Of a DNA stretch of 64,000 nt, positions 4,371 to 49,595 are shown piece by piece (within the stretch, counting starts at the first letter, position 1; each line of letters opens with the position of its first letter). The stretch comes from Balamuthia mandrillaris. Lineage: Eukaryota. The translations under genes and the position numbers were made by a program. The notes under the pieces are model-generated. The model searched no databases and had not been told where the DNA came from. It was given only the letters and a program-made list of their open reading frames with translations. Where the stretch lies: assembly GCA_031835245.2 (NCBI GenBank), contig JAVKOQ020000021.1, forward strand, positions 248,001 through 312,000, read 5' to 3'.

Positions 4371-4409
<39 letters not shown>

Positions 4410-4578: not shown

Positions 4579-4622
<44 letters not shown>

Positions 4623-5007
4623 GAAGAGAGAGAAGAGAACGGAGAAGGGGACAAACAAACTTGGCAGAAGCAACCATGAGTCTGGCACTGAGATTGACCG
4701 AATCTCCAACCACACAATACTCGCACCTCTTGGCGCTGCCCACGTTGCCACAAAAAGTTCTTCCAGTGGTGATACCAATCGAGTTAGCCAAATTCAGTTC
4801 ATGCAATCGTGAGTTAATGACGAGGGCGGCATTTATAGCGCGAACGGCATCATCCTCCAACGTCATGTGAGGCAAGCCAAAGACGGCGATGAGAACCGCG
4901 CCTTTATCATCAACGATGAATTGTCGTAAAGCTCCTTTGTAATGCAATAGTACTTCCTTTTTTGTTTAACAAAACAAAAAGCCGATAGACAGAAATTACT
5001 TGTTAGT

Positions 5008-7740: not shown

Positions 7741-9168
7741 TCAGTTGGCCTTTTCCTGCGATGGCCCGCTCTCACGGGTGGCAAAGGGGACCTGGATCTG
7801 GTCACAGTTGATGCCGACCATGGCCTCTCCCAAGTCCTCCGACACCTCCGCCAAGATTGCTGGGTTCTTGTAGTGAGTGACCGCTTGCACGATGGCCTTT
7901 GCTCTCTTCTCTGGATTTGCACTCTTGAAAATCCCTGTTGCGTTTTATGTTTAGGAAGAGAAGCATAGAAGCAAGAGGAAGGAGGAAGCGGATTAAAAAA
8001 ACCAACCAGAACCAACAAAGACGCCATCCATGCCGAGTTGCATCATCATGGCGGCGTCCGCGGGAGTGGCGATGCCACCGGCAGCAAAGTTGACGACGGG
8101 GAGGCGGCCGAGCTCTGCTGTCTCCTTGATGAGCTCGTAGGGCGCACCGATCTCCTTGGCGTAGGAGTAGAGCTCAGAGGGGTCCAGTGAGGCCAACCCT
8201 TTGATCTCTCTGTTGATGGTTCTCGCATGTTCTTTGTTTGGTGAAAAGAAACATGAAGAATGAGGATGTTTGAAAGGTAGACTATAGGAGAGAATGGTAA
8301 CAGAAAAGAGAGAGGTGATGCAAAAGATGCAAGGAGAGATACATACTGACAGCATGAACGACGTCACCAGTGCCAGCCTCGCCTTTGGTGCGAATCATGG
8401 CTGCGCCCTCGCTGATTCGCCGGAGAGCCTCACCGAGGTTGCGAGCGCCACAGACAAAGGGAATATTAAAGTCATGCTTGTGGATGTGGTGGCGGTCATC
8501 GGCGGGAGTGAGCACCTCCGACTCGTCGATGTAGTCCACCTCCAGCGCCTCCAGGATTTGAGCCTCCACAAAGTGTCCGATACGTACTTTGGCCATCACT
8601 TCATGTTGTTGCGGCAGAGGAGAGAAGCGATCAATGAAAGTGAAAATAAGCGATGAAAGAGGAACGATCCAAGTGGAAGCAAAGGTGAACAAAACACAAA
8701 CCTGGAATGGAGACAGCCTTCATGATGGATTTGATCATGGCGGGGTCGCTCATGCGGGCCACACCACCAGCCTTGCGAATGTCAGCGGGCACCCTCTCCA
8801 AAGCCATGACGGCCACAGCGCCTGCCTCCTCCGCAATCCTCGCTTGTTCCGGGTTTACCACATCCTTTTTTCATAAACAAACGCATGGAGGGGAGAGTGA
8901 GAAAGACGATGGACACAATGCGCGATGGAAAGAACAATCGCACGAACCATGATGACTCCACCTTTGAGCATCTGTGCCAGCCCCGCCTTGACTTTGAAGG
9001 TGGCTCGGGTGGCAGCTGATCAACACACAACAAGCAAGAAGGAAAAACCCAATCCATCGACGTTTGTTCAGTGGGAAAACAGCGCAAAAAGAAAAAAACA
9101 GAGCGACATGGGAGGCAATACGCACCATTTTGAGTGTGTCCGTTCGAAGCAGTAGTAGTGGAAGCCAT
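7741..9168 (-). CDS. PDX1: Pyridoxal 5'-phosphate synthase, synthase subunit (PDX1/SNZ); multi-exon
   Basis: Motifs [69 protein letters not shown] and [33 protein letters not shown]. Stop at 7741-7743. Confidence 0.97.
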
Positions 9169-9639: not shown

Positions 9640-11830
<2,191 letters not shown>

Positions 11831-12172
11831 ATCAAAAACTCCAAAAAAAAAATCGGAATAATAATTTTATGATCGGATCAATACTTTGAATTTTGATTGG
11901 CCAGGTCGCACTCAATTTAAAAATGATATCCAAATATAGTCTCCATGCACCAAATATAGTGTGCACCTACTCGTATAACAAGATCAAGTCGCCAAAGGCT
12001 GGTAGACTCCCGTTTCTTTTTTTTATTTTACGAGGATCCTGTGTTTCTACGGTACCCTAGGGTGAACACCCGAGCCTGGGGCTAAACTTTTTTTTGCATA
12101 AAGCGCTCCTTCTTCTTCTTCTTCTCATTATCGTTCTTTCGCACACTAAACCTCACATACTATAACACAAGC

Positions 12173-13434
12173 ATGAAAGACGAGGCTTCTCCGGTGGAAG
12201 TAATGGCGCGAGCTCGGTGTCGTCTCAAGGCCCAAAAGAGCGCCTCTCACCTTCCCTCCAAGAAGGAAAAGGATCTCTGCTGGAAGGAAGTGACCGGATT
12301 CGACCCCAAAGAGGAGGATGAGGAACAGGACCAGTCCGGAGACCAAACGCTTCTTGTCCCGACCCTGGCGGGAGCTTCCTTCACCCCCAATGACATCAAG
12401 CTCCGGAGGCTCTTGGGAGAGGGCAGCGGAGGTTCCGTTTACCTTGGAATGAGCCGCCACATGAACCAACATATCAAACTCGCCATCAAAGTCGTGCGCA
12501 AAGCTTGTGCTTCCGACCAAAACGAAAACGAAAAATACTCTGCTCATGAAAATTCTTTCATTCCTCAACCAAAAGTCCTCGCGTTGCGAAGGGAACACGC
12601 TGCTTTGATGCTTCTACCTCCGCACCCACATATCATCCCGCTCTATTCGGGGCTGCTTGAGAGCGAGGACTGCATCTGCTACGTCATGAAATACGCGGCC
12701 AACGGGGATTTGTTTGAGTACATTCGGCGGCTGGGTCGGCTACCGGAGTCGGAGGCTTGGAGGATCTTCCGCCAAGTGCTGGCAGCGGTTTCGCACGTGC
12801 ATGCACATGGACTATGTCACAGAGACCTAAAACCTGAAAATGTACTTTTTTCATTTTTACTGTCTCTCGTTTTTCCGTTAGTTGGCTTTGCTGTGGCCCC
12901 TTCATTCTCCGAACGTTTGTGTTATCTGTCTTCTCACAACTTCGAAAACAGATCTTTTTGGACGAAAACATGAACGTTCTCTTGGCAGACTTTGGGCTTT
13001 GCGCGCGGTGGACATCCTACACGCCTGTGGCGGACTGCGTGGGTTCCCTGGACTATGCCGCTCCGGAGGTGCTCTCCGGGAGTAGCTTTGTCGGTCCCGA
13101 GGTGGATATGTGGTCCTTGGGTGCCCTGCTCTACATGATGCTGCGAGGAAGGACGCCGTTTCATGCCCTCTCTTCGGCGGATATCTATGAGAACATAATG
13201 CGAGGAGAGTACAACACGGCCGACCTCTCGGACAACGCTGCCAACCTGCTGTCCAGGTTGTTGTCGCCTGACTCACTGAGGAGGGCCACCATGTACGAGA
13301 CGCTGAACCATCCCTGGATCAAAGAGCAGCCCCATCGGACGCGGATCAGCTCTGCTCCCAGTTTGGGAAGTGACACTTCTGCATTGCTGTTGGGCGGAGC
13401 GGGCGAAGATGAGAAGAAGGCGATGACCCCTTGA
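12173..13434 (+). CDS. Ser/Thr protein kinase, CAMK group (SNF1/MARK-like)
   Basis: Motifs GEGSGGSV, AIKVV, GDLFEYI, HRDLKPEN, intron ~12842-12951, ADFG, GSLDYAAPE and VDMWSLG. Confidence 0.92.
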
Positions 13435-16764: not shown

Positions 16765-17601
16765 TTACACCTGTTGCCATCGCCTCTCTTTTGCTCTTCT
16801 ATTCCGAAACCAAACCTGCAGACGCTCCAGAGAGATTCCTGCTTGTCCCGCCAATCGTAGCTTGCACTGCCTGCTCGGCATGTGGTCGCTGGCGAAGGCC
16901 TGCTCCAAGATTTCCAGCTGCTCAGGGTTCAGGTCGGATCGAGGTTTCCTAGGTCGTTTCGCGGCTCCTTGCTCGTCGAACGAAAATCCCCCGATGTGAA
17001 AACGAAGTGGGGAATGTGGGACCTTGCGTTTCTTTCGGTTGCTGATATGTTTTTGCCTCTCGGTTCTTGTTGAAACACGGAAGTTCCACCACCGGGACTG
17101 GTAATAAGCATCCTCTAACAGAATGTTCGTATGGTGGTTATATGTATCGTCTGTAACCTCTCTTGGAGTGGTTGCTTCCAGCCTTGGTTGTTCTTCAGAT
17201 CCGTTGTGATTCTCGGGGAATGCAATTACGCATGGTTCATCTGTTCTGGCCTCGGAACAGGTCTCGTTTTGTTCCTTTTTCCTTTGTTTTCTTTGTGCCT
17301 CAACGTCATGCAGGGCACCCAAAGAGTTTGAGCGAAACAGGTGGGAAGGGTGCTGAGACTTTTCTCCAAGATGGGGTGGATCGGATATGCCCTGCGTCGG
17401 TCCGTGGGCACGTACTGTTGACGGTGGTGGAGGAAGGCTACGCAGTGACAAGAGGGAGAGCGTGAGTTCAGGTTCAGCAGCAACCACAGGACGCATGCTT
17501 GACCAAGGAAGAGATATTGGTAACGATGATGGAGGTGAGATGCAAATATCCACTTCCAAAAGCTTTACCGGGAGGGACATGTGTGCCGTTCTCTCATCCA
17601 T
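16765..17601 (-). CDS. Homeobox transcription factor with a C-terminal homeodomain
   Basis: KRPRKPRSDLNPEQLEILEQAFASDHMPSRQCKLRLAGQAGISLERLQVWFRNRRAKERR. The 5' end is uncertain. Confidence 0.88.
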   Translation of the reverse strand: MDERTAHMSLPVKLLEVDICISPPSSLPISLPWSSMRPVVAAEPELTLSLLSLRSLPPPPSTVRAHGPTQGISDPPHLGEKSQHPSHLFRSNSLGALHDVEAQRKQRKKEQNETCSEARTDEPCVIAFPENHNGSEEQPRLEATTPREVTDDTYNHHTNILLEDAYYQSRWWNFRVSTRTERQKHISNRKKRKVPHSPLRFHIGGFSFDEQGAAKRPRKPRSDLNPEQLEILEQAFASDHMPSRQCKLRLAGQAGISLERLQVWFRNRRAKERRWQQV

Positions 17602-18041
17602 CTTCTTTGAAGACAACAAACCGTGGTAGCGAAGAGTGCGAACAAAGCATTTCTATATAAACACTTTTTCCCTGCCGTCTCTCTTTGTCTGTCATCTTGT
17701 GTTGTTGAGGAATGACCGACCCCCAGCCAACAAAAAAACTCAAGAGCTCCGCCGTCACGCTTAGCACGCTGGTCGCCAACCGCACGTGAGCAACAAGGTT
17801 TCAGAGAGACACAAAGAGACGCAAAGGGTAGTGGCGGGCCAATGGCGTTCCCCCGATCATTATGATGATCTGATCTTCTTTCATGACATCATCACACGTC
17901 ATAAATACCCGAAGTTTCCACAACAAATTAAGGTGACCTATGACGTCATCATTTCCTCCTTAAAAACGTGCAAAAAAGAAATAAAAAAGAAAGAAAAAAA
18001 ATGAAAGAAGGAAAGAAAAGAAAGACACAACCACCAACAAA

Positions 18042-19081
18042 ATGAACACAACCATGGAGACATCCCTCCCACCAAAGGTCATCCGCATTGGCGTGTTGGC
18101 ACTGCAAGGTTAAAAAAAAATGACCTCCAACAACACTCCTTTTCCTTCCGTTGGTCTCACAGCTTTTTTTTTTTTGATTTGATCAAACAAACGAATAGGA
18201 GCATTTGTGGAGCATGTGCAAGCGCTCCAACGATTAAAGCTCTCCCACCTCGAGGTCGTGCTCGTAAGAGAGCCTCACCAGCTTCACTCCTCGTCCTCTC
18301 CTCTGGACGGCCTCATCATCCCCGGTGGAGAGTCCACCAGCATGGTCCTCATCGCCGAGCGAACAAACATGATCGAGCCGCTGCGTGGTTTCGTGCGTGA
18401 CCCCAAGAAAGCCGTCTGGGGCACCTGTGCTGGGCTCATCCTGTTGAGCAACCACGTGGAGGGGCAGAAGGAGGGCGGCCAGGCCGTGCTTGGCGGCTTG
18501 GAGGTCAGCTGCTCCAGAAATTACTTTGGGCGTCAGGTGGGTTTCGGCTTCTCTTCTCTGCTTTCATTCCTTCTTGTCGCCACCTTCTTTCTTGTTGTCT
18601 CTTCCTTAGCGTTTCGTTCGTTCTTTCATTTGTCTTTTCATGTTGTTTCGTTCTTTTTCGTGTTCGGTGTTCTTCGCTTTTTTGTTAACTTTTTTTTTTC
18701 GTTTCTTTCTTCCATCGGATGGTCATTACCGTCACCGCCTTCTGCATACTGCTCTGTCTAACTTTTTTTTCAAAACCAAAGGTGAAAAGTTTTGTGACAA
18801 ACCTCAACGTTGATTGCTTTGGCAAAGACTCTGCCCCCCACGAGGCCGTCTTCATTCGGGCTCCCGCTGTCCTTCGCATTCTCGACGAAGCCAAAGTGGA
18901 ACGGTTGGCTGACATTCCTGATGCCAACGATGAGAAAAAGAGAGTGATCGTGGCAGTGCGTCAAGGGACGCGCCTGCTTGGCACAGCCTTCCACCCGGAG
19001 CTCACGGAGGATGACCGGTGGCATGCCCTCTTCGTGAAGATGGTGCAGCAGAACCTTGCTTCTTGTTCTCAAGCCAGCTGA
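18042..19081 (+). CDS. PDX2: Pyridoxal 5'-phosphate synthase glutaminase subunit (PDX2/SNO); 3 exons
   Basis: Motifs [50 protein letters not shown] and [11 protein letters not shown]. Confidence 0.96.
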
Positions 19082-21532: not shown

Positions 21533-21871
21533 ATCTCCATTGCTTTTGCAATGGAAAGAACAAGAGACAACCTCGTTTCATGTTTTTCATGGAACAACAC
21601 AGCTGCACAGGTGTATAACACAGTCAATAACAATATTCTGCTCCTCCATTTGGCCCTATTCGGCTGCCTTCCATGGTTCTTCTTCTTGGAAACTCAAGAA
21701 CAACTCAAGGAGAGACTTCCAATGCATGACAACCCACCACACCCAAATGAAGCACCGCGCCCATCCAACTATAAAACACCCACCGGCACTCATCCTCCAA
21801 CTGCCATAACAACAACAACAACCAGCACAAAAACAAGAAGAACAAACCTGCTGACAACAACAACAACAAGG

Positions 21872-22906
21872 ATGAAGCCTGCTCTGATGGTTTGCCTGTG
21901 GTTGGCCTTCTTGGCCGCCACCTCTTTGGCTGGCAGGGCTGATGTCAACTATGGTGGAGGCGATGTGCGCTATGATGGCGATGTCGTCACCTACGACGGC
22001 GGTGATGTCCGTTACGACGGCGGCAACGTGGTGACTTACGACGGTGGGGACATCCGCTATGACGGTGGCAACGTTCGCTACGACGGTGGTGATGTCCGCT
22101 ACGATGGAGGGGATATCCGTTACGATGGAGGGGATGTTCGTTACGATGGCGGCAGCGTGGTCTACGGTGGAGGAGATGTTCGCTACGATGGAGATGACAT
22201 TCGCTACGATGGAGGGGACATCCGTTACGATGGTAATGTGGTGACTTACGACGGTGGTGACATCCGCTACGACGGCTATGATGGAGGCAACGTCTACGAT
22301 GGTGGTGACGTTCGTTACGATGGCGGTGACATCCGCTACGACGGGTATGATGGAGGCTATGTGCGTTACGATGGTGGTGACGTTCGTTACGATGGTGGTG
22401 ACATCCGCTACGACGGATATGATGGAGGCGATGTGCGTTACGATGGCGGTGATGTTCGTTACGATGGCGGCAACGTGGTCTACGATGGTGGCGATGTTCG
22501 CTATGATGGCGGTGATGTTCGTTACGACGGAGGAGACATCCGCTATGATGGTAATGTGGTTACCTACGACGGAGGAGATATCAGTTACGATGGTGGAGAC
22601 ATCCGATACGATGGAGGTGACGTCCGTTATGATGGCGGCAACGTGGTCTATGATGGCGGTGACGTTCGTTACGATGGTGGTGACATCCGTTATGATGGTG
22701 GTGACATCCGTTACGATGGCGGCAACGTGGTCTACGATGGTGGGGACATTGACTACGATGGTTACGATGGGGGAAACGTTGGCTACGACGGCGGCAACGT
22801 GGGCTACGACGGCAACGCCTATGATGGCGATGTGGTGGCCTACAATTCCAACAGCGGCGATAAGGATGCCTCCTCTGCTGCTTCTCCAGCCGCGTTCTGG
22901 CTCTGA
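21872..22906 (+). CDS. Secreted Tyr/Asp/Gly heptapeptide-repeat protein (YDGGD[VI]R)n
   Basis: Signal peptide MKPALMVCLWLAFLAATSLA, then ~43 YDG units with extensive synonymous codon variation, then a short hydrophobic C-terminus. Confidence 0.85.
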   Translation: MKPALMVCLWLAFLAATSLAGRADVNYGGGDVRYDGDVVTYDGGDVRYDGGNVVTYDGGDIRYDGGNVRYDGGDVRYDGGDIRYDGGDVRYDGGSVVYGGGDVRYDGDDIRYDGGDIRYDGNVVTYDGGDIRYDGYDGGNVYDGGDVRYDGGDIRYDGYDGGYVRYDGGDVRYDGGDIRYDGYDGGDVRYDGGDVRYDGGNVVYDGGDVRYDGGDVRYDGGDIRYDGNVVTYDGGDISYDGGDIRYDGGDVRYDGGNVVYDGGDVRYDGGDIRYDGGDIRYDGGNVVYDGGDIDYDGYDGGNVGYDGGNVGYDGNAYDGDVVAYNSNSGDKDASSAASPAAFWL

Positions 22907-24111: not shown

Positions 24112-26912
24112 CTCCTCAACTCATTTGTTATTCACAAAAAAATACACGCATGCACAACAATACTCAGACGAATGTTAAACTTTCTGAAGCTTTGGGCCTC
24201 CTCCTATCCGGAAGACTTCAGCTCCAAGCACCACAGCGCCCTGCTGGCCATAATCTCCAAAGAGAACGCCGCCAACGTAGTCAACGAGTTCAAGCTCCTC
24301 TTCCTCAAGAAGAACCGCTCCAAGCTCTCCCTCAACACCTTCAAGAACTTGGCCAACTTTAAAATGGCAACCAAAGGCCTTAGCACCATCGGCGGAAGCA
24401 ATAGTGGAGCAAGTCACAACAATCCATTGCTCCACTTGAGTAAAGATGGAGCTTCGAATTTGAAGAAGAGTTCGACTTGTCCGAATCTCGCTGTCTCCAT
24501 TTCTGCAGCAACGGCAGCAGCGGCAGCTTCTTCTTCGTCTTCCTCTTCTCCTGCTACTTCTCCGCTCGCTTCTCCTTCATCATCCCCTGCTTCCCCCTCT
24601 TCGTCGTTGAGTGTGGAAAGCAAAAATGGCGAGAGTAAGAATACGTTGAGAAGCGTTTCGAGTGCTGACGCTTTGGGCGGAGGAGAAAGCCTACTGGAAG
24701 ACGTTGCAAGTAACAAAAAAGTGAAGAAAGGATCCAAGAAGAGGTTTTCGCGACGAATGAGGTTTCTTTCTTTCACTTTTCTATTCCTCTCTTCATCTCT
24801 TCTCTCCATTCTCTCATTCTTTTTCCTCTTTATCTCACACTATATGTTTTGTGCAGGAAAAACTTGAGCAGCTTTTCCGACTTAACAATAGCACGCGAGC
24901 TAACATGGATAGAGTCCGAGATCTTCAACTCCATCTCCAGACGCGAGTTCCTGGATCAAGGCTGGCAAAAGCTCAACAAGACCGCGGTCTCTCCGAACAT
25001 CACAAAGCTCATCACTCGCTTCAACGAGGTCGGCTTTTGGGTGGCCACCGAAATACTGACCAAGGAGGAGAAATACAAAGTGAAGTACATCAAGCGGTTC
25101 ATAAAGATCGGGCAGGCATGTCTCCACTTGGCTAACTTTAATACTATGATGGAAATCCTTTCTGGCCTCTCTACTTCGGCTGTTCAACGACTGAAAGTTA
25201 GTCTTTCTCTGCCTTTCTCTGTCTCTCTCTGTCTCTCTCTGTCTCTCCGTCTGTCTCTGTCTTTCTCTTTCTCTTCTCTTCTCTATTCGATTAACTCTTT
25301 TGTATATTCCCGTTTATCTCATTTCTGTTTTCTTTTTGTATGATCTTGTGTTCTGGTTCTCTTTGCTCCTTGCTCTCACTCTCCCCTACTCTCTGTGTTT
25401 CTCTTCTCCTTCGTCTCTCTCGCTTTGCTTTTTCTCTCTTTCAAACCTCATAAATGTCTGTCTGTCTGTTTATTTACCTTTGATGAAAAGACCACATGGC
25501 AAGCCATTCCAGCGCGATACATGACGATGTTCAACGAGATGCAATCGGTGATGAACCCGCTGCAAAACTTTGCCACCTACCGAGAGGCCCTCGACAAGCG
25601 ACGACGCAGCGGAGATCCGACGTTGCCGTACATGGGCCTCATCCTGCGCGATCTCACTTTCTACTCTGAAAATCCAATGTATCTTAGCGATGGCACCATC
25701 AATGCCGCTCTCCTGTTAGACTATTGGCACCAAATCAAGAAAGTACGGCAGTATCAGTCCAACCATTACAGCTTTCAACGGTTCGCTTCCTCTCTTTCGT
25801 GCTTTTTGTCTTTCTCTCAAGAAAGCAAAACTAAAAAACGCTTTTAAACGAATGCAGCGATCATGCAGCATATGAATATTTGAAGTCTTTGGCGTTTATG
25901 GACAACGAAGATGTGCTCTATGCGTTGTCGCTGTCCAGTCAACCCAGTCCACGCAGAGGCCAGGACCCTTTTCCTCTTCTCACCAAAGAACGATCCAACA
26001 CCCTTCCTGCTCAACCAAAGGTACCATTCATTCCTTCTGTTTCTCTGTTCGCTTTTCTCTTTTAGCTTCTGTCCTGCCCCCTCTGCTCCTCTCCTCTTTT
26101 GATTCTCTCCTCTTGGCTTACTCTTATAACAACTTGATAGGATTTGCCTTCGTTGAACTTGCGAGAGTACAATTCGATGGACGCGGAGGCGCTCTCCACG
26201 GAAACCGAAACAACCGAAACCGGAACAGAAACCAACACCGAGACCAATACGGAGACCGCCAACATGAGCGACAGCGACACAGAAGACGAGGATCTGGACT
26301 CTGTTGCTTCTTCTGGCGTTACTCGCCGAAGAAGCGCCTCTGCAAGCGCCATTACCGTAAATATTCTTCTCTCTGCTTCTCTGCTCTTCTCTGCTTCTCT
26401 TTATGGTTAAGGAGCGCTTTTCTTCCTTTGTTTCTTATTTGCTATAACGACAATACCAAAAGCAGAATCCGATAAACATGGAAGCGGTAAACGCAAAGCT
26501 GAGCGCTGATGGGAAAAAGTTTCTGCAGAAGAAACAACAACAAGAAGAGAAAAAGCGGAAAAAGAAAAAGAAGACCAAGTCCTCCAGCTCCCTGGAGAGC
26601 AATAACGAAGCAGAGGAAGAAGAAGCGGATTGTATAGTCACGAAAGATGTTCTCGACAGGCACATGAAAAAGTTCAACGAGCTGAGCGACGCGGTGCTTC
26701 GGCCGAAGCAAACACCGCAGGAGAAAGAAAAGGAAGAAAACGAGGAAACGGAGAGAAAAGAAAGCGAGGAAGAAGAAGAAGAGGAGGAGACAACCACGAC
26801 CACCACGACCACAAAAGAAGAAGAAGAGGAAGAGGAGGAGGACGAGGAAGGAGGAGAAACCACTTTTGACGAAGACACGGAGCCACTCCAAGAAGAACAA
26901 GAAGATCATTAA
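23408..26912 (+). CDS. Ras guanine-nucleotide exchange factor (REM + CDC25 domains); multi-exon
   Basis: Motifs AFLLSY, NFLKLW..YPEDF, IARELTWIESEIF, ITRFNEVGFWVATEIL, ANFNTMMEILSGL..AVQRLK, NFATYREAL and PTLPYMGLILRDLTF. Confidence 0.92.
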
Positions 26913-28114: not shown

Positions 28115-28764
28115 GACGGGGCAGAGAAGAAAGAGGAAGAGGAGGAAAGCAAAGCCTGGCCCTCCCTTCTCCCATCCTGGGCACGCGCTGAGCTGCTTGG
28201 ACGCGTGGAGTGGCAGCTTCATCGTAAACGGATTGGAAGGGGTTGCTGATTGTTCAGCCAAACTGGGAGAAGCCCCACTCTCTCGATGAGAGCCACTCTC
28301 CAACGAAAAAAGGTGCTTGGACCACCGTTCACCGTCAATAGGTCTGTGGGTGGGCAAAAGCTTGTACCTCAGCAGTTGCGCGGCTGCCTGCCTGTTCCTC
28401 ACTGATGGTGCTCGCTTGGGTTTCACTCTTTTCTTCTTGTAGTAGGTGAGAGGGTGAGCTGGGCAAACCCGGAGGGCAAGGATGAAAGCTTGTTGTCAGA
28501 GGGGGGTGCTGCCGGAAGAAGTGAAGGCGAGACTGCAAAGATTGCAGAGAAGATGTGATGTTTGTGCACAGTTGTTTTTGGAGGCAGAGGCAGCAGCAGG
28601 AGGAGGGAGAGGAAGCAGCAGGAGGAGAAGAAGAAGGGCAAGCAAGGGAAGCGGTGAGGAGGCATTGGGACGAGGGAAGCAGGGTGTGGTGGGAGTTGTG
28701 GTGCTGCAGCCAGAGCTGCTTCCACCGGCCCCTCCCTGCTGCACGTTCCCTTGCACCCAAGTAG
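28115..28764 (+). pseudogene. Scrambled relic of the LRR gene family (5' remnant, internal inversion, intact 3' end)
   Basis: 28120-28185 resembles the LRR gene 5' end. About 28350-28497 is an inverted linker remnant plus one LRR unit. 28497-28764 is nearly identical to 30601-30871. Confidence 0.85.
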
Positions 28765-28984
28765 TTCCTTGTTGTTGTGTTGGGGAAAATTAAAAAAAAA
28801 AAGAAAAGCAAAAGGAGGAATAAAAAGAAAACAGAGGAAAAGGCAAACAACCATCAGCTTCTTGCTCCCGTCGTTGTCTCAAGCTGCTCACTGAGCAGGC
28901 AACCGACGATCCTCGGAGGACAGAGCGTGTAGCAGGGCAGTCATTATTGGCGGCGCAAGAAAGAGGTTTTAAAAGTAACAAAAA

Positions 28985-30871
28985 ATGGAAGCAGCGGCAG
29001 AGAAGAAAGAGGAAGGGGAGGAAAGCCAAGCCCTTCCCCCCCTTCTCCAACGCTTTGCGCACTCCACTGCCTGCGACCTCTCCAACAACAAGTTGAGCGC
29101 CTTGCCGAGGGAGTTTGGCCAGCTCACCTCGCTCACCCGCTGCAACCTCTCCGACAACAAGCTGAGGTCCTTGCCCAAGGAGTTTGGCCTGCTCACCGCT
29201 CTCACCTCCTGTGACCTTGACAAAAACAAGCTGACCACCTTGCCGAAGGAGCTTGCCCAGCTCCGCGCGCTTACCCACCTCGACTTCACCTACAACAAAC
29301 TTTCCTGTTTGCCGAGGGAGTTTGGTGAGCTCACCGCTCTCACCTGCTGTGACCTCTCCTGCAACAGGCTGAGCTCCTTGCCGCAGGAGTTTGGCCAGCT
29401 CTCCGCTCTCACCTCCTGCAACCTCTCCCACAACCAGCTGAGCTCCTTGCCAAGGGAATTTGGCCTGCTCTCCACTCTCACTAAGTGCTATCTCCAAGCC
29501 AACCAGCTGAGCTCCTTGCCGAGGGAGTTTGGCCAGCTCTCCGCTCTCACCTGCTGCAGTCTCTCCTGCAACTATCTGAGCTCCTTGCCGAGGGAGGTTG
29601 GCCAGCTCTCCTCTCTCACCCGCTGCGACCTGTCCTTCAACAAGCTTACGTCCTTGCCGAGGGAGCTTGGCCTGCTCACCTCTCTCACCTCCTGCTACCT
29701 TCACCACAACCAGCTGAGCTGCTTGCCGAGGGAGTTTGGCCAGCTCACTGCTCTCACTCGCTGCAACCTCTCCAAAAACCAGCTGAGCGCCATGCTGAGA
29801 GAGTTTGGTCAACTCACTGCTCTCACTGAGTGCGACCTCTCCCACAACAAGCTTTCATCCTTGCCCTCCGAGTTTGGCCAGCTCACCGCTCTCACTCGAT
29901 ACAAGCTCTCCGACAACAAGCTGAGCTGCTTGCCCAAGGAGTTTGGCCTGCTCACCGCTCTCACCCACTGCGACCTCTCCTACAACCTACTGACCGCCTT
30001 GCCGAGGGAGTTTGGCCTGCTCACCGCTCTCACTAGCTGTGACCTCTCCTGGAATAAGCTGAGGTGCTTGCCGAGGGAGTTTGGCCAGCTCACCGCTCTC
30101 ACCTCCTGCTACCTTCACCACAACCAGCTGAGCTGCTTGCCGAGGGAGTTTGGCCAGCTCTCCACCCTCAACTATTGCAGGTTGAGTGGCAACCCCTTGG
30201 CAGCACTGCCTTGTTCCATGGTTTGGCTTCTTCCCTCCTTGAAAACGTTCTTCCTTCAACCCTTTCAACGGCAAGAAGCACTTCTCCAACAAACAGAAGA
30301 ACGTGAAAAGGAAGAGCAAGAGGAGGAGAAGGAGAAGGGAAAAAAGGAAAGAGAGAAACCCAAGCAAGCACCAGCCACAAGGAACAAGCAGACAGCTGTG
30401 AAAAGCTTGTGGCACTTGAGCGGAGAGGCGGTGCTGAGGAACCAGCTTTTGCCACCTGGCTTGTTGACCGCTGTTCGAGACCCGCCGCCCTTCTCTTGGC
30501 TTTCTTCTTCTCCTCTGAAGGTGGAGAGGACCACAAATCAGCAGCAGCAAGGAACCAAAGAAGAAAGGCAAGAAGGAGAAGAAGGGAGCGAGGAGGTGGG
30601 CAGAGGGGGGGTGCTGCCGGAAGAAGTGAAGGAGAGACTGCAAAGATTGCAGAGAAGATGTGATGTTTGTGCACAGTTGTTTTTGGAGGCAGAGGCAGAG
30701 GCAGAGAAGGAGGGAGAGGAAGCAGCAGGAGGAGAAGAAGAAGGGCAAGCAAGGGAAGTGGTGAGGAGGCATTGGGACGAGGAAAGCGGGGTGTGGTGGG
30801 AGTTGTTGTGTTGCAGCCAGAGCTGCTTCCACCGGCCCCTCCCTGCTGCACGTTCCCTTGCACCCAAGTAG
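28985..30871 (+). CDS. Intronless LRR protein (17 x 23-aa repeats) with BC-box/cullin-box-like and Cys-rich C-terminus
   Basis: Repeat consensus LxxLTxCxLSxNxLxxLPREFGQ. C-terminal motifs SLWHLSGEAV, LPEEVKERL, CDVC and CCSQSC. Confidence 0.92.
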   Translation: MEAAAEKKEEGEESQALPPLLQRFAHSTACDLSNNKLSALPREFGQLTSLTRCNLSDNKLRSLPKEFGLLTALTSCDLDKNKLTTLPKELAQLRALTHLDFTYNKLSCLPREFGELTALTCCDLSCNRLSSLPQEFGQLSALTSCNLSHNQLSSLPREFGLLSTLTKCYLQANQLSSLPREFGQLSALTCCSLSCNYLSSLPREVGQLSSLTRCDLSFNKLTSLPRELGLLTSLTSCYLHHNQLSCLPREFGQLTALTRCNLSKNQLSAMLREFGQLTALTECDLSHNKLSSLPSEFGQLTALTRYKLSDNKLSCLPKEFGLLTALTHCDLSYNLLTALPREFGLLTALTSCDLSWNKLRCLPREFGQLTALTSCYLHHNQLSCLPREFGQLSTLNYCRLSGNPLAALPCSMVWLLPSLKTFFLQPFQRQEALLQQTEEREKEEQEEEKEKGKKEREKPKQAPATRNKQTAVKSLWHLSGEAVLRNQLLPPGLLTAVRDPPPFSWLSSSPLKVERTTNQQQQGTKEERQEGEEGSEEVGRGGVLPEEVKERLQRLQRRCDVCAQLFLEAEAEAEKEGEEAAGGEEEGQAREVVRRHWDEESGVWWELLCCSQSCFHRPLPAARSLAPK

Positions 30872-31526: not shown

Positions 31527-33488
31527 ATGGAGGCAGCAGCAGCAGCGAGGAAAGAGGAGGGGGAGGACCGCACAGCCCTTCCTCCCCTTCTCCAAAGCTT
31601 TGCACACTCCACCCACTGCGACCTCTCCCGCAACGAGCTGACCGCCTTGCCGAGGGAGTTTGGTCGGCTCACCTCTCTCACTCACTGCAACCTCTCCCGC
31701 AACCAGCTGAGCTGCTTGCCGAGGGAGTTTGGCCAGCTCAGCTCTCTCACCCACTGCGACCTCTCCCACAACCAGCTGAGCGCCTTGCCGAGGGAGTTTG
31801 GCCAGCTAGCCTCTCTCACCCACTGCAGCCTCTCCTGCAACCAGCTGAGCTGCTTGCCGAGGGAGTTTGGCCTTCTCACCGCTCTCACTCACTGCGACCT
31901 CCACAATAGCCAGCTGAGCTGCTTGCCGAGGGAGTTTGGCCAGCTCACCTCTCTCACCCGCTGCGACCTCTCCTACGTTAAGCTGAGGTCCTTGCCCTCC
32001 GAGTTTGGCCTGCTCATCGCTCTCACTGACTGCAACCTCTCCTTCAACAAGCTGAGCTGCTTGCCGAGGGAGTTTGGCCAGCTCAGCTCTCTCACCCACT
32101 GCGACCTCTCAAGCTATTACCTGAGCTCCTTGCCAAAGGAGTTTGGTGAGCTCACCGCTCTCACTGACTGCAAGCTCTCCTTCAACAAGCTGACCGCCTT
32201 GCCGAGGGAGTTTGGCCAGCTCTCCGCTCTCACTCGCTGCGGCCTCTCCTGCAACCAGCTGAGCTGCTTGCCGAGGGAGTTTGGCCAGCTCTCCGCTCTC
32301 ACCCGCTGCGGCCTCTCCAGGAACCAGCTGAGCTGTTTGCCGAGGGAGTTTGGCCAGCTCTCCGCTCTCACCTTCTGCGACCTCTTCCACAACCAGCTGA
32401 GCTCCTTGCCGCAGGAGTTTGGCCAGCTCCGCGCTCTCACCCACTGCGACCTCTCCCACAACAAGCTGAGCTGCTTGCCAAAGGAGTTTGGACAGCTCAC
32501 CGCTCTCACTGAGTGCGACTTCTCCTTAAACAAGCTGGGCTGCTTGCCAAGGGAGTTTGGACAGCTCACCGCCCTCACTAGCTGCGACCTCTCCGACAAC
32601 AAGCTTTCATCCTTGCCCTCCGGGTTTGGCCAGCTCACCGCTCTCACTGACTGCAACCTCTCCTTCAATAAGCTCAGCTCCTTGTCGAGGGAGTTTGGCC
32701 AGCTCTCCGCTCTCACCCGCTGCGACCTCTGCAACAACCAACTGAGCTGCTTGCCGAGGGAGTTTGGCCAGCTCACTGCTCTCACTGACTGCGACCTCTC
32801 CAACAACAAGCTGAGCTGCTTGCCGAGGGAGTTTGGCCAGCTGACCACCCTCAACAATTGCAGGTTGAGCGGTAACCCCTTGGCAGCACTGCCTTGTTCC
32901 ATGGTTTGGCTTCTTCCCTCCTTGAAAACGTTCTTGAAGGAGGAGAAGCAGAAGGGAAGGATGGAAAGATTGAAACCCAAGCAAGCACCAGCCACAAGGA
33001 ACAAGCAGGCAGCCGTGAAAAGCTTGTGGCACTTGAGTGGAGAGGCGGTGCTGAGGAACCAGCTTTTGCCACCTGGCTTGTTGCCCGCTGTTCGAGACCC
33101 GCCGCCCTTCTCTTGGCTTTCTTCTTCTCTTCTGAAGGTGGAGAGGACCACAAACCAGCAGCAGCAAGGAACCAAAGAAGAAAGGAAAGAAGAAGAAGGG
33201 AGAGGGGAGGTGGGGGTGGGGGTCCTGCCAGAAGAAGTGAAGGCGAGACTGCAAAGATTGCAAAGGAGATGTGATGTTTGTGCACAGTTGTTTTTGGAGA
33301 CAGAAGCAGAGGTGGAGGAGGAGGGGGAGGAAGAAGCAGCAGGAGAAGAAGAAGGGCAAGCAAGGGAAGCGGTGAGGAGGCATTGGGACAAGGGAAGAAG
33401 GGTGTGGTGGGAGTTGTTGTGTTGCAGCCAGAGCTGCTTCCACCGGCCCCTTCCACATTCCTATTTGCCTCTTCTAACAAATAAATGA
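31527..33488 (+). CDS. Tandem paralogous intronless LRR protein (19 x 23-aa repeats)
   Basis: Same architecture as 28985-30871, with near-identical N- and C-termini. Confidence 0.92.
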   Translation: MEAAAAARKEEGEDRTALPPLLQSFAHSTHCDLSRNELTALPREFGRLTSLTHCNLSRNQLSCLPREFGQLSSLTHCDLSHNQLSALPREFGQLASLTHCSLSCNQLSCLPREFGLLTALTHCDLHNSQLSCLPREFGQLTSLTRCDLSYVKLRSLPSEFGLLIALTDCNLSFNKLSCLPREFGQLSSLTHCDLSSYYLSSLPKEFGELTALTDCKLSFNKLTALPREFGQLSALTRCGLSCNQLSCLPREFGQLSALTRCGLSRNQLSCLPREFGQLSALTFCDLFHNQLSSLPQEFGQLRALTHCDLSHNKLSCLPKEFGQLTALTECDFSLNKLGCLPREFGQLTALTSCDLSDNKLSSLPSGFGQLTALTDCNLSFNKLSSLSREFGQLSALTRCDLCNNQLSCLPREFGQLTALTDCDLSNNKLSCLPREFGQLTTLNNCRLSGNPLAALPCSMVWLLPSLKTFLKEEKQKGRMERLKPKQAPATRNKQAAVKSLWHLSGEAVLRNQLLPPGLLPAVRDPPPFSWLSSSLLKVERTTNQQQQGTKEERKEEEGRGEVGVGVLPEEVKARLQRLQRRCDVCAQLFLETEAEVEEEGEEEAAGEEEGQAREAVRRHWDKGRRVWWELLCCSQSCFHRPLPHSYLPLLTNK

Positions 33489-33522: not shown

Positions 33523-36500
33523 TTATAAATGATGGTGAGAAACGACAGAAGCAACGCGGCACTCGGAGTGAGTGACGAGAACATAAAGGCGTTGAGGTAA
33601 TGAGAAAGATAAAGGAGACGGAACCATCGATCGAAGGATGTATTCTTTGGCCTGTGGTGCTCTTTGTTGTCTCTCTTCTCGACCTTTTTTTTTGTTGTTT
33701 AAACATACGTTAAAGAAAAGAAGATGACAGAAAAAGAAGAGAAAAGAGACAAAGGGAAGGAACGCAAAGAGAGACAGAAATTGAAGAAGAAAAGACAGAG
33801 TACCAAATGAATGAGCGTTGGTATGATAGAGGAAAAGACTTTTGGCTTGGGTCAAAGCATCTCCTCTGCTCAATACGACTTCATCAGCAGCTGCATTGTT
33901 GATATTTATCATATTTGCCATCAACCGACCCACCACTTCATTTTGATTAGGTAACTATCCAGAAAAAGAAAAAGAGTTAGAAGAAAGAAAGAACGGTAAA
34001 GCAAAGAGAGAACCGTGCAAGAGAGAGGTGGCAGTGGCACATAACTGTTCTGTCTGCGTAATAATTTGAAGCAACTGTGTTTGAACAGTTGTTCTGTTTG
34101 TTTGTTTGTTTGTTTGTTTGTTTGTTTGTTTGTTTGTTTGTTTGTTTGTTTGTTTGTTTGTTTGTTTGTTTGTTTGTTTGTTTGTTTGTTTGTTTGTTTG
34201 TTTGTTTGTTTGTTTTGTTTGTTTGTTTGTTTGTTTGTTTGTTTGTTTGTTTGTTTGTTTGTTTGTTTGTTTGTTTGTTTGTTTGTTTGTTTGTTTGTTT
34301 GTTTGTTTGTTTGTTTTTGTTAAGAAATGAAAAGAAGATCAACAACAATAAGAGAAGGAAGAAGGACATAGCAGGAAAAGTTACGTGATGGTGGACGTAT
34401 CAATGGAGCGTAAAAGTTGACGGAGGGACTCCAATGCCTCTTTCACTGGTGCTATGTGAACAGCACACGGCAGCCTACACAATGAACTGTATGCACAAGA
34501 TAAACCCACTCCCATCATTCTTATGTATCGTGCAAGAAAACATCGTTAGAGGAAGAAAAAAAACGAAACAAGAAGAAAGAAGAAAGAAGAAAGAAGAAGA
34601 ATGAAGCAAAGACAGAAGACAGGAAAAATAAGAGCCTTGAAAAGGAGATAAAAGGTATGTACTGTTGCATGAAGGAAAAGGGAGAGAGCGTTTCCAAGTA
34701 ATGAAGAGCCTTTTCAGCCTCTTTGTTGTGGTCGAACAACAACTTCTGGGAGGTGATGGGCACTGCTCGTGCTTCTTGCCACGTTTGCAACCACAGATTG
34801 TTCGCCATCTGCATTCGGGTGCTCAAATATCCAACCATTGTTTTTCCGTTCTCTTCAAACTCGAAATAATTTGGTAACTTTAGCTCTTCTTCTTTTTCTA
34901 GTTGACCCTCTTTCTCCTCTAATGCATTTTCGTTTTCTTCTTGTTTATCTTCTGTTCTTTTTGCGTCTTCTTCTTCCTTGCGTTGTTTGCGTTCTTGTTT
35001 CTTTCGTGCATAGTCAGCGAGCATCTGCTCTTTGCTCTCTACTATCCAATCGCTGGGAGAGTACCATCGCACGAAATCCTCTAAAATGCAACCCGGGTTT
35101 GCTGCTTTGAACGCTTCCATGTCTGTTTTCATTTGTTTCTTATTAACCACAAAAAGAGGAGAGAAGTGACGAAAGAAAGAAGAAGAACAAACCAGAGAGT
35201 AATGATGCGCTTTGCATCTTTGCTCGAATCTGTTGAGCTTCAATCGAACTTCCCAGTTCCTCAAATATCTTCTCTTGTTCCTCCAACATGTCTTCTGTCA
35301 TCCATCCGTGGGGTTGTGTAAATGGCACCCACATTTCTTCTCCACTCGCTAACAATCTTTCTGTTCTATTCTTCTTGCTTTCTGGTTTCTTTTCATTCGC
35401 TTCTCGTTCTTCGGAAGGATCAGAAGAGATAATGAAGAGTTCTTTTGCCCCTTTGCGTCCTTGTTGTGAATTGTTTGTTGCTTCATTGCTGTTGCCATTG
35501 CTTGTATCAGTCTCTTCTTGTGATGAAGGGTCATCTGGTAACTAAAGAGGATACAGGTGTCACTTGTGCTGTCGTTGAACTCTAAGAAAATTGAAGACAA
35601 CAAAAGGAATGAAAGAATACCTCGATTTCAGCATCATCCCAACCGCTGGTTTCCGCTGCTTCATCATCCTCTAAACCAATGTCCCATCCTTTATCTCCTC
35701 CTCCTTCTTCTTCTTCTTCTTCTTCTTCAACTAGTTCATCCTCAGTGAACGCAAATCTACTGGTTATCACGTTTTGCTCTTGTTGTGAATTGTCTTCTGA
35801 TTGCTGGAGGTCTTCATTGCAACGTACTGCTGCCTTGAGTTTTTGCTCTATTTCTGCATTTGACTTTTCTCCTAATGCTAACTTGCGTTCGATGCAGTAA
35901 TTTATCTAATAGTTGTTTTCAGTATTTGCCTCATAAGCAGAAGATAACATGAAGAAGATGAAGATGAAGAAGCAGAAGAGAAGCAGAAGCAGAAGCAGAA
36001 GTAGGAAAAGAGGAAGAAGAGGAAGGAGATTAAGATAAAGCGAGAAAAAAACCAGTTGAAGCTTTTGATAAAGAAGACAGGTGCTATAGTTCATTCTTTG
36101 TCGTTCAATCCGTGGAATAAACTTGAGGTTGTCCCAATGCCATCTGCATTCTTTCACAAACTCGTTCCACACAACTGCTATCGCTGTAAGAATTCCATGA
36201 GAATACAATACAAATACATACACAAAAACAAGGAACGGGCAGAAGAAAACAGAACCAAAACAAGTGATTGAATAGAGACTTACCGTTAAGACCCTCGAGA
36301 CTCAACAAACAAGAAGATAAAGAAGACAACAAAGAACCAGGTGGCGCTGACTTTAGCGATCGTTGAAGCTCCACGATCGGTTGAGAATAGATGGGAAAGT
36401 AACTCTCCTCATTTGTTTGTTTCGTGGATGTTACCTTTGAAAACTCTTTTTCAGGATCGAATAAATATTGAAGCATGCTATCTATTTCTTGTGCTGTTGG

Positions 36501-40010: not shown

Positions 40011-41328
<1,318 letters not shown>

Positions 41329-47149: not shown

Positions 47150-48205
47150 ATGAGGTTCGCGGTAGTATGTGTGCTCATGTGCTCTTTGGTCGCCCTTGCT
47201 GCAGGTGAGCCTAAAACCGTCGATCATCTCAAAAACATTGGTCTTACATGTTCAACAAAGGGCTCAGCAGAGAATATGACAAATGCATTCAGCTTCCAAA
47301 CAGTGCAAATGTTGACTACAGGCTCTACTATAGCATCGAAGGCGGTAGCATCGCTTTCGCTTTGTCGGGCAACTTTAGCGGTTGGATGGCCGTCGGCATC
47401 TCCACTGATGGCAGCATGACGAGCAGCGGCGATGGTTCTGATGTCATGCTTGGCTACGTGGACGACGACGAATGCTCTGAAGTAATACCTTTTGCCATTT
47501 GTTTCACTCTGAATTGTTTTTTTCTTATCGGGTCTCTCCTTTTATATTTGCTGAAAGGGTTGTTTGAATGACTATTGGGTGACGACTAAAATTGGAAGCC
47601 CTCCAGTAAAGCTCGACACAAGCGAGGAAGGTACCTCGGACGTCACGCTCGTGGGGGGCGGTGAGAATGACGGCGTTACCACCATCGAGTGGTCGCGTTT
47701 GTTGGACACCGGCGATAACGTTACCGACCGTGTCATTGATCCCAACTCCGAAATTTCACGCACGTTTTCCACCCATTTTCGTTCGTTTGGAGAAATGTAA
47801 GCGTTACGTTTTTGTCCATTATCTTATATTCTGTTTTGTTGCCTGCTCTTTCGCTTTTCGCTGCTTGCAGTCATCTATGCATGCAACATTGGCACTGTTC
47901 CTTCAAGCCCTTCCAGTTTCGTGAAGCATTCCGACGGCACCAACCACGGTTACCCAATCACCCTTTCCACCCAGACCTGTATGTTTTTTTGTTATCCTTC
48001 AATGTGTTTCCTCCGCATACTTACTCTTTCCTCCTGCCTAAAAGCCACATGTACCGCCCCGCCAGAAGACGGTGATGATGGAGATGACGGCGATGACGGT
48101 GACGACGGTGATGACAGTGATGATGGCGTTGATGGTGATGACGGCAAAGAGGACGGTGGAGACGCCACAATCATATCTTCCTTCCTTTCTTTGTTTTTGT
48201 TCTGA
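47150..48205 (+). CDS. Secreted DOMON-domain protein 1; multi-exon
   Basis: Signal peptide, then GWMAVGISTDGSMTSSGDGSDVMLGYVD, DYW and IEWSRLLDTGD..DRVI, then an acidic (DGD)n linker and a short hydrophobic tail. Confidence 0.85.
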
Positions 48206-48417
48206 AGAAGAGTAACACCCGCACAACGGCCATAAATGATCGGAGTCACGGCCCCTTCACAATAAACGGATAATGATCATATTAGGCGAATAACTGTTAT
48301 TAATATTAAAAATAAAATGAAACGGAATGAGCCACTTGCGGCCAATAGCCTTTGTTCTGTTTTTTGACCAACGACGGGTTCGTAAACAACAAACTCGCAA
48401 CAGAAACAACAACCAAC

Positions 48418-49595
48418 ATGTTGAACGTCTTTCTTCAGGGCTGCGCCCTCTTTTTGTTCTCTTTCGTCCTGCTTTCTTCTGGTTTGTGGCCTTTCTTTTT
48501 TTTTAAACACAAAAAAGAAAACTTAAAAAAATAAAAATAAAAAAAGGACTGAGCAGAGAATATGACCACTGTGTACAGCTGAGGACACCGACCACCGGCT
48601 CCAAGCTGGACTACCGCCTGCACTGGACTCTGGAGGAGGACGAGGTGACCATCGCCTTTGCCTTGGAGGCCAACGTGCCCGGTTGGATCGCCATCGGCAT
48701 CTCTGCCGACGGCAGCATGACGAGCAGCGGCGATGGCTCTGACATCATGCTTGGCTACGTGGACGACGGAGACTGTTCTGAGGTTTGTGTTCGTTTTTTA
48801 ATCGTTTTTTCTCCATTTTGCATTCTTTTGTTCACTCCTCTCTCCTTTCATCATTCTTCATTGTCTTTCTTCTAAACACACCAAAAACAAAGGGCTGCGT
48901 CAACGACTATTGGGTGGTCACCAAAACCGGAAGCCCTCCCGTCAAGCTGGACGACCGTGTTGGCGGCAACCAGTCCTTGACCTTTGTGGCCGGCAGCGAG
49001 GTCGACGGCGTCACTGCCATCGAGTTCACTCGTTTGTTGGACACCGGAGATGACGTTACCGACCGCATCATTGATCCTTCCTCTGCTACGCACAGTTAGT
49101 AACACCTCTCTTCTTTGTTTTTTCCTCTTTCTGTTTGTAAAATACTAACCATAAGTCCTCTCCTGTTTCTTTCTTCTCTGCTGTTCTATTTTCTTTTTTT
49201 TTGTTAACTTTCTCCACTCTTCGTTCTTGCTGTGCTCCTACCTTCCTCCACTGTCTCTCTCAACAGTTATCTTTGCTGCTCACACGCAGCTGGACCCTAC
49301 AAGCCCCAGCGAATTCTTGCAACACATTGCTGGAACGAATGATGTCCGGACCATTACCTTTGACTCTGAAGAATGTAAGTTTATTTTTTTCTTTTCAGCT
49401 ATGCATTTACAACGAGCAGTACTAACAACAAACAAACATTAACCAGCCGACTGTGCCTCCACCCCCATTGAAGGAGGAGATGGTGATGAAGATGGAACCG
49501 AGGATGGATCAGCGGATGGATCGGAGGATGGTGATGGAACCGAGGATGGCGGCGATGGAAGCGGCTCTTCTACCTTGTATTCCTTCCTGTTCTGA
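48418..49595 (+). CDS. Secreted DOMON-domain protein 2 (tandem paralogue); multi-exon
   Basis: Motifs YRLHWTL, GWIAIGISADGSMTSSGDGSDIMLGYVD, IEFTRLLDTGDDVTDRII and VIFAAH..QH. Intron positions appear to match paralogue 1. Confidence 0.85.

What the first reader, a model, noticed from the sequence alone, without database searches (positions are those of the whole stretch)
30404..30830. LRR proteins end in a BC-box/cullin-box-like plus Cys4 module: variable E3 ligase substrate receptors?
Seen in both genes: SLWHLSGEAV fits the BC-box pattern (S/T/P)LxxxC/A/SxxxV/I/L. LPEEVKERL/LPEEVKARL fits a cullin-box-like LPxxhxxxL. CDVC...CCSQSC could bind zinc. Established knowledge: LRR + BC-box + C-terminal Cys cluster is the layout of LRRC58-like Elongin BC-cullin adaptors. 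Inference: hypervariable LRRs coupled to ubiquitylation would make a recognise-and-degrade defence system. The BC and cullin boxes are separated by an atypically long charged insert.
Basis: inference. Interest (0 to 1): 0.7.

Follow-up and report, generated by a model that had tools for sequence, protein, structure and literature searches.

The report
Shuffled-repeat ubiquitin-ligase adaptor family in amoeba
An amoeba carries many copies of a leucine-rich-repeat gene whose binding surface varies rapidly while its tail stays fixed; the tail likely plugs into the cell's protein-destruction machinery, which would make these genes a variable recognise-and-destroy repertoire, though binding is untested.

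Summary
The motifs are there, in two intact single-exon LRR genes (28985-30871, 31527-33488) and a rearranged third copy. All named relatives are Balamuthia mandrillaris proteins; sequencing-run contigs point to tens of variants. The BC-box decamer is 94% identical among paralogs, its flanking linkers 29-35%. One paralog lacks the long insert, giving a 37-residue BC-to-helix unit like LRRC58's 36-residue Elongin-binding region; a distant relative has a canonical BC box. Concave LRR positions show dN/dS about 2 (1.5-2.7) and repeats are shuffled between the genes. ESM features point to LRRC28/58/69. Against: no sequence or structure match to LRRC58/LRR1 tails, cullin-box spacing outside the 8-23 rule, tail models unconfident, Elongin C in this genome unverified, and Dictyostelium lacks clear Cul2/Cul5. 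Complex folding was unavailable. Verdict: probably (about 0.6) a lineage-expanded, diversifying family of LRRC58/LRR1-type Elongin C-cullin substrate receptors; a defence role is plausible (about 0.3) but unshown. New variant of a known kind.

The parts
28985..30871 (+). Gene 1: intact single-exon ORF, 628 aa, about 17 LRRs of 23 aa plus tail; no signal or membrane segment
29066..30199 (+). LRR array of gene 1; framework fixed, concave-face positions variable
30404..30433 (+). BC-box-pattern decamer SLWHLSGEAV (gene 1)
   Evidence: consensus from PMC3355856
30449..30475 (+). First Cul2-pattern match LPPGLLTAV, five residues after the BC motif (alternative cullin box)
30484..30609 (+). Variable insert 1 (Ser/Gln/Glu-rich); absent in paralog P0008
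30614..30640 (+). Second Cul2-pattern match LPEEVKERL, a fixed 7 residues before the first Cys
30659..30670 (+). CDVC, first predicted zinc-ligand pair
30686..30754 (+). Variable acidic insert 2
30761..30826 (+). Predicted beta-hairpin (VRRHWD / VWWELL) ending in CCSQSC, second predicted zinc-ligand pair
   Evidence: (low confidence)
31527..33488 (+). Gene 2: intact single-exon ORF, 653 aa, about 19 LRRs plus the same tail (motifs at 33021-33050, 33066-33092, 33225-33251, 33270-33281, 33372-33437)
28120..28781 (.). Broken third copy: 5' piece (28120-28199, +, 77% to gene 1), an inverted LRR/linker piece (about 28352-28500, -), and a frameshifted tail with its 3' flank (28497-28781, +, 94% to gene 1)

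Best explanation
These are members of an expanded Balamuthia family of LRR proteins with a variable concave surface and a conserved tail that likely works as an LRRC58/LRR1-type handle (BC box, cullin-box helix, zinc-bound hairpin) for an Elongin C-cullin ubiquitin ligase. Shown: intact genes, many paralogs and fragments, fixed motif blocks with indel-rich linkers, excess amino-acid change on the concave face, non-collinear repeats, low-level family transcripts. Inferred: the BC decamer binds Elongin C; LPEEVKERL (or the nearer LPPGLLTAV) completes the cullin contact with the charged inserts looping out; four Cys bind one Zn that, with the hairpin, orients the LRR arm; each paralog's LRR face picks a different protein for ubiquitylation; repeat shuffling and gene birth-and-death renew the repertoire. 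The cullin is probably a CUL1-like or CUL3-like amoebal one rather than a true CUL2/CUL5. The likeliest driver is conflict with intracellular bacteria or viruses, the least supported step.
For: Order and spacing match the LRRC58 layout described in PMC13156300 (LRRs, BC box, CUL2 box, Zn loop, two-stranded sheet). P0008 has 18 residues between BC motif and helix and 37 from BC start to helix end, against 8-23 in the consensus (PMC3355856) and 36 for LRRC58's ELOB-binding region 256-291 (PMC12589099). P0011, 38% identical, has the canonical BC form SLVWQCASKL and keeps LP, all four Cys and the Trp residues. Mean pairwise identity among Balamuthia copies: BC core 0.94, last strand plus Cys 0.94, linkers 0.29-0.35. 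6 of the 10 listed ESM feature rows are named LRRC28, LRRC58 or LRRC69, scores 0.85-0.90. dN/dS at the five x positions of LxxLxLxxN is 1.98 (bootstrap 1.47-2.71) against 0.57 for the other 18 positions, over 32 units. 139 RNA reads of the family in one run, none in intergenic bins in three runs. ElonginC was reported in all 17 genomes surveyed, a set that includes Dictyostelium (PMC1257465), and a BC-box receptor with a family-specific insertion uses CUL3 (ZSWIM8, PMC13083262).
Against: A tail profile found 9 proteins among 1.84 billion representatives, 8 Balamuthia plus P0011, and no LRRC58, LRRC28 or LRR1. No match to such chains in the PDB by sequence at E up to 10. ESM features of a tail without its last LRR gave no usable hit, so the signal may lean on the LRR cap, and the tool was not calibrated for parts. 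In genes 1 and 2 neither Cul2-pattern match lies 8-23 residues after the BC motif (5 and 58-60); P0008, which has the right spacing, has lost the Pro. The BC motif has the rarer Ser-Gly in place of Cys-Ala. Dictyostelium cullins are CUL1-, CUL3- and CUL4-like (PMC9108976). The dN/dS estimate uses non-independent units and strongly biased codons, so dS may be depressed. Only 4, 4 and 2 reads were 99% or more alike to gene 1's region, so expression of these two genes is not established.
Confidence: 0.6

Rival explanations
1. The tail descends from an LRRC58/LRR1-type receptor but no longer assembles an active ligase: it binds Elongin C as a decoy or serves only as a zinc-stabilised cap, and the LRRs act by binding and sequestering targets.
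For: Cullin-box spacing is broken by a 36-41 residue insert in most copies and the LP motif is lost in P0008; several annotated members stop after the BC block or lack the CxxC (P0010, P0012, P0013); no clear CUL2/CUL5 in Dictyostelium.
Against: The LP helix and its 7-residue distance to the first Cys are kept in 8 of 8 complete tails, P0011 included; 6 of 8 listed DNA variants in that block are synonymous (only 40 of 177 variant rows were visible).
Confidence: 0.2
2. The box matches are coincidental; the tail is an unrelated Cys4 treble-clef (TRASH/MYM-like) interaction domain and the LRR sensors signal by another route.
For: Each pattern alone arises in 9-14% of shuffles; no sequence link to known BC-box proteins; Atlas structure rows for the tail include MYM-type, YHS/TRASH and L28 clusters, all under the tool's naming bar.
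Against: The BC decamer is the best-conserved block and becomes canonical in the distant relative; the ordered layout is rare by chance; a treble-clef-like Zn hairpin is itself compatible with the element described for LRRC58; Pfam lists only LRR families for LRRC58/28/69 clusters, so a Pfam miss says little.
Confidence: 0.12
3. The family is a mostly neutral, recombination-prone repeat family; variation reflects unequal crossing-over and codon bias, not selection for new targets.
For: Many fragments and a rearranged copy in this window; very low read counts; framework codons nearly fixed.
Against: Amino-acid change concentrates on concave-face positions while the framework and tail motifs are constrained; both long ORFs are intact across 17-19 repeats.
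Confidence: 0.05
4. The LP helix is a C-terminal F-box-like motif that binds Skp1-Cul1.
For: It starts with LPxE; three Dictyostelium cullins are CUL1-like.
Against: No F-box family matched any of 6 tails at E up to 10; the helix is followed directly by CxxC rather than by further F-box helices (sequence; F-box layout recalled).
Confidence: 0.03

Closest known systems
Human LRRC58, CRL2/CRL5 substrate receptor for CDO1 (PDB 9T7V; PMC13156300, PMC12589099, bioRxiv 10.1101/2025.09.23.678073)
   Same: N-terminal LRRs, then BC box, Cul2-type helix, Zn-binding Cys cluster and a two-stranded sheet at the C-terminus; similar length of the BC-to-cullin-box unit in the compact paralog P0008.
   Different: LRRC58 is a conserved gene with nine LRRs and one metabolic substrate; here tens of copies with about 5-19 near-identical, shuffled repeats, two long charged inserts and a charged linker. 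No sequence match was detectable.
LRR1 (PPIL5), LRRC28 and LRRC69
   Same: LRR1 is an LRR protein with a VHL box that binds Cul2 (PMC3355856); LRRC28/69 clusters are the top ESM feature hits. That LRRC28/69 and LRR1 share the LRRC58-type Cys tail is recalled, and noted in earlier AI findings, not shown by a call here.
   Different: Low-copy housekeeping genes; LRR1 (7plo_O) matched the model only over the LRRs (Z 20.2, model range 2-189).
Rapidly evolving F-box and MATH-BTB adaptor families of nematodes and plants (PMC8665587, passages; Thomas 2006 seen only as cited there)
   Same: Conserved cullin-docking part, positively selected substrate-binding part, birth-and-death evolution, proposed to target foreign proteins.
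   Different: Skp1/Cul1 or Cul3 adaptors, not Elongin C; diversity here arises inside a near-identical tandem repeat array.
Fungal NLR repeat domains with high internal conservation (PMC4986451, passages)
   Same: Concerted evolution, repeat shuffling within and between genes, a few hypervariable positions per repeat on the binding face.
   Different: WD, ANK or TPR repeats coupled to a NOD domain and a cell-death effector; here LRRs coupled to a putative ligase handle, with no NOD domain.
ZSWIM8-ELOB/C-CUL3 (PMC13083262, passages)
   Same: A BC-box receptor whose family-specific insertion between BC box and cullin box changes cullin choice.
   Different: Its whole BC-cullin box spans about 40 residues and is structured; the inserts here are longer, low-complexity and dispensable in one paralog.

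Membership tests
VHL-box (BC box + Cul2 box) CRL2 receptors | BC box (S,T,P)Lxxx(C,S,A)xxx-hydrophobic | tested here: met
   One match in each of genes 1 and 2, and in 9 of the 12 family proteins scanned at the homologous site; P0003 starts with Asn, P0009 lacks the region, P0011 has the canonical Cys-Ala form and is counted separately
VHL-box (BC box + Cul2 box) CRL2 receptors | Cul2-box pattern hydrophobic-P-xx-hydrophobic-xxx-hydrophobic | tested here: met
   Two matches downstream of the BC motif in each gene; the pattern is loose (9-14% of shuffles)
VHL-box (BC box + Cul2 box) CRL2 receptors | Cul2 box 8-23 residues after the BC box | tested here: not met
   5 and 58-60 residues in genes 1 and 2; 18 in P0008, which lacks the Pro; 11 for the first match in P0011
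VHL-box (BC box + Cul2 box) CRL2 receptors | Binds Elongin B/C and a cullin | not tested
   The complex predictor was not available; no experiment
VHL-box (BC box + Cul2 box) CRL2 receptors | Host encodes Elongin C and a compatible cullin | not testable with these tools
   No whole genome held; none in the window; literature on Dictyostelium only
SOCS-box (Cul5) receptors | LP-hydrophobic-P Cul5 box | tested here: not met
   0 of 12 proteins; no SOCS_box match among 6 tails at E up to 10
LRRC58/LRR1-type receptors | LRRs followed by BC box, cullin box, Cys cluster and two-stranded sheet, in that order | tested here: met
   Sequence order; hairpin only in a low-confidence model
LRRC58/LRR1-type receptors | Detectable homology of the tail | tested here: inconclusive
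   ESM features favour it but not without the LRR cap; HMMER and PDB searches gave no link; no LRRC58/LRR1 tail sequence could be fetched for a profile-profile test
LRRC58/LRR1-type receptors | Same fold of the tail, with one Zn bound by four Cys | tested here: inconclusive
   Four Cys invariant in the six tails of A5; tail pLDDT 30-51, fold searches covered only the LRRs
LRRC58 orthologs | CDO1 as substrate, cysteine-sensing C-terminal motif | tested here: not met
   No terminal VLLG-like motif (bioRxiv section 11); the variable, multi-copy LRR face does not fit one conserved substrate
F-box proteins | F-box profile match | tested here: not met
   No F-box family among 6 tails at E up to 10 or in the full proteins at E up to 1

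The most novel reading that the evidence does not exclude
Balamuthia runs an intracellular, antibody-like surveillance system: dozens of LRR receptors whose concave faces are rebuilt by repeat shuffling and positive selection, each wired through a BC box to an Elongin C ligase built on a cullin other than CUL2/CUL5, to destroy proteins of invading bacteria or giant viruses.
Probability: 0.3. Interest if true: 0.75.

Novelty: new variant of a known kind. Interest (0 to 1): 0.5.

Why it matters
How amoebae recognise the bacteria and giant viruses that live in them is poorly known. A family that joins fungal-NLR-style repeat shuffling to an Elongin C ligase handle would be a concrete, testable candidate for cell-autonomous immunity in Amoebozoa and a test of the long-standing idea that fast-evolving cullin adaptors target foreign proteins. 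It would also show Elongin C receptors working in a lineage whose best-studied member has no clear CUL2 or CUL5. I found no paper describing this family (searches; passages and supplements of two Balamuthia papers); subscription journals are mostly not held.

Tried and rejected
Complex prediction with a stand-in Elongin C (alignment A6, 26 environmental sequences, identified by PDB match at 4e-34) was not available: no verdict. Single-sequence AlphaFold of P0005 was uninformative (mean pLDDT 47); the 12-row model of P0008 resolved only the LRRs. Foldseek against PDB and BFVD and VIA-align returned only LRR matches; LRRC58 was not among the listed rows, and the PDB library ends on 8 April 2026. 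Pfam and NCBIfam had no meaningful match to the tail. Scans for tail relatives found none in viral contigs, JGI metagenome contigs or prokaryotic genomes; these scans need near-exact peptide words. A third protein search gave no new relatives. No RNA holder was listed in the index. The LRRC58 sequence was not in the searched supplement; bioRxiv supplements are closed, and one supplement of PMC12589099 could not be read; alignments there might bear on the motif comparison. Thomas 2006 and Mahrour 2008 were not held. Rejected: bacterial or viral origin of the whole gene (no evidence found); F-box; SOCS/Cul5 box; membrane or secreted receptor (no hydrophobic segment above 1.45 in genes 1 and 2).

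Full report
What is there. The window is intron-rich eukaryotic DNA; the finding lies between a peptidase M50B gene and a Rab3GAP catalytic-subunit gene. Two uninterrupted ORFs on the + strand, 28985-30871 (628 aa) and 31527-33488 (653 aa), encode about 17 and 19 LRRs of exactly 23 residues followed by a tail of about 200 residues. A third copy just upstream is broken: a 5' piece, an inverted LRR/linker piece and a frameshifted tail 94% identical to gene 1. Neither intact protein has a signal or membrane segment.

Relatives. The tail's closest relatives are Balamuthia mandrillaris proteins. A tail profile scored against 1.84 billion representatives gave 9 hits at E up to 0.001: 8 Balamuthia proteins and one unnamed 143-aa protein from a 621-base ENA contig, P0011. 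With P0004, 9 annotated Balamuthia proteins carry the module: 4 with several LRRs and a complete tail, 1 with an LRR cap and tail, 4 partial. Laying run contigs on 521 bases of the tail at 80% likeness recruited 300, 149 and 166 contigs in three runs, about 43-48% of them under 90% alike; at diagnostic positions 13-29 distinct contigs carry the other base, and summed depth peaks on three blocks (30398-30483, 30610-30685, 30755-30845) and falls in the inserts. The tool warns that depth is not copy number and alleles are included; I read it as tens of variants. RNA: 12, 10 and 4 of 12.9 million reads per run at 95% likeness, none in the intergenic bins; 139 reads at 80%, 102 of them under 90% alike. 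The family is transcribed at low level; these two genes themselves are not shown to be.

The tail. The consensus BC box is (S,T,P)Lxxx(C,S,A)xxx-hydrophobic and the Cul2 box, hydrophobic-P-xx-hydrophobic-xxx-hydrophobic, lies 8-23 residues downstream (PMC3355856, passages). SLWHLSGEAV fits; two Cul2-pattern matches follow at 5 and 58-60 residues, so the spacing rule is not met. Alone these patterns are weak (9-14% of shuffles); in order 0.4-0.9%. The family strengthens the case. Among Balamuthia copies the BC core is 0.94 identical, the last strand and Cys pair 0.94, the linkers 0.29-0.35 with large length changes. P0008 lacks insert 1 altogether, leaving 18 residues between BC motif and helix and 37 from BC start to helix end, close to the 36-residue region whose deletion abolishes ELOB/C and CUL5 binding in LRRC58 (PMC12589099, passages); P0008 has, however, lost the Pro of that helix. 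P0011, only 38% identical, shows the canonical Cys-Ala BC form and keeps LP, four Cys and three Trp. The first Cys sits 7 residues after the helix in 8 of 8 complete tails. In LRRC58 the cullin-binding region is flanked by a Zn-bound loop and a long two-stranded sheet (PMC13156300, section 11); the AlphaFold model of P0008 puts helices on the BC motif and LP motif and a hairpin on the two Trp-rich strands, but at pLDDT 30-51, which is a hint only. ESM features of gene 2's last LRR plus tail list LRRC28, LRRC69 or LRRC58 in 6 of 10 rows at 0.85-0.90; a tail without the LRR gave no usable hit. Direct homology was not obtained: no HMMER, Pfam or PDB link, fold searches covered only the LRRs, and the complex predictor was unavailable.

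The LRRs. In 32 full units the framework is nearly fixed down to the codon, while positions 10, 12, 14 and 15 of the unit, the x positions of LxxLxLxxN that line the concave face, carry 1.4-3.3 bits of variation. Using all five x positions chosen beforehand, pairwise dN/dS is 1.98 (bootstrap over units 1.47-2.71), 1.86 in gene 1 and 2.04 in gene 2, against 0.57 elsewhere. Across six proteins 52 of 58 parsed repeats have distinct four-residue codes (the parser missed some units). Best-matching units of genes 1 and 2 are not collinear although their tails are 92% identical, which points to shuffling. Caveats: units are not independent and codon bias may lower dS. This pattern is like that described for fungal NLR repeats (PMC4986451, passages) and, in logic, for nematode F-box adaptors (PMC8665587, passages).

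Is the machinery there? No genome was held. ElonginC was found in all 17 genomes of an older survey that included Dictyostelium (PMC1257465, passages and section 7). Dictyostelium's five cullins are closest to CUL1, CUL3 and CUL4 (PMC9108976, passages), and one paper calls Cul2 and Cul5 animal-specific (PMC12816148, passages). A BC-box receptor can use CUL3 through a family-specific insertion (PMC13083262, passages). So Elongin C is likely present and the cullin partner is open.

Mechanism and verdict. Most likely (0.6) each protein is a substrate receptor: the BC helix binds Elongin C, the LP helix and Zn-hairpin set the geometry, the charged inserts loop out, and the variable LRR face selects a target for ubiquitylation. 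Shown are anatomy, conservation pattern, expansion and diversification; inferred are Zn binding, Elongin C and cullin binding, ubiquitylation and foreign targets. It works like LRRC58/LRR1; it cannot be filed as a canonical VHL-box protein (spacing not met) or as an LRRC58 ortholog. Earlier AI notes report LRRC58/LRR1-like tails in fungi, microsporidia and a giant virus, so the module alone is not rare; what stands out here is the expansion with shuffled, positively selected repeats. I found no description of this family in print (search listings; PMC10471605 passages and supplement, PMC8569187 supplement). Also seen: bioRxiv 10.1101/2025.09.23.678073 (passages and section 11) and bioRxiv 10.1101/2020.06.15.152298 (passages, nothing relevant). 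Interest 0.5.

Noticed in passing
L001:136-636 (+), IMG/VR GVMAG contig: A giant-virus genome bin carries an intact, intronless Elongin C ORF, 60% identical to an environmental protist-type Elongin C; could be a captured host gene or binned host DNA.
   Followed up: partly
window 29066-30199 and 31611-32882: Cys replaces the second Leu of the LxxLxLxxN motif in 30 of 32 repeats, giving a buried cysteine ladder; Cys is also common at unit position 20.
   Followed up: no
window about 21870-22906 (+): ORF with a signal-peptide-like start followed by some forty 7-residue Tyr-Asp-Gly-Gly repeats; possibly a secreted wall or cyst protein.
   Followed up: no
window 7996-8719 (-) and 18183-19078 (+): Both vitamin B6 synthase subunits (SOR_SNZ and SNO families) lie within about 10 kb.
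   Followed up: no
window 3024-4965 (-): Exons with AAA_16 ATPase and adenylate/guanylate cyclase matches, probably one multi-domain signalling gene.
   Followed up: no
window 54153-57812 (-): Exons with RWD, ARTD15_N and PARP catalytic matches, a PARP16-like gene.
   Followed up: no
window 40196-40978 (-) and 60013-61114 (+): Two molybdopterin-biosynthesis (MoCF_biosynth, MoeA_C) genes in one window.
   Followed up: no
window 10875-11827 (+), 12086-13431 (+), 16768-17652 (-), 24714-25844 (+), 47215-48872 (+), 61159-63243 (-): RING plus zinc-ribbon gene, protein kinase, homeodomain, RasGEF, two DOMON repeats and an FAD-linked oxidase.
   Followed up: no
window about 34090-34320: Long TTTG microsatellite downstream of gene 2.
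   Followed up: no
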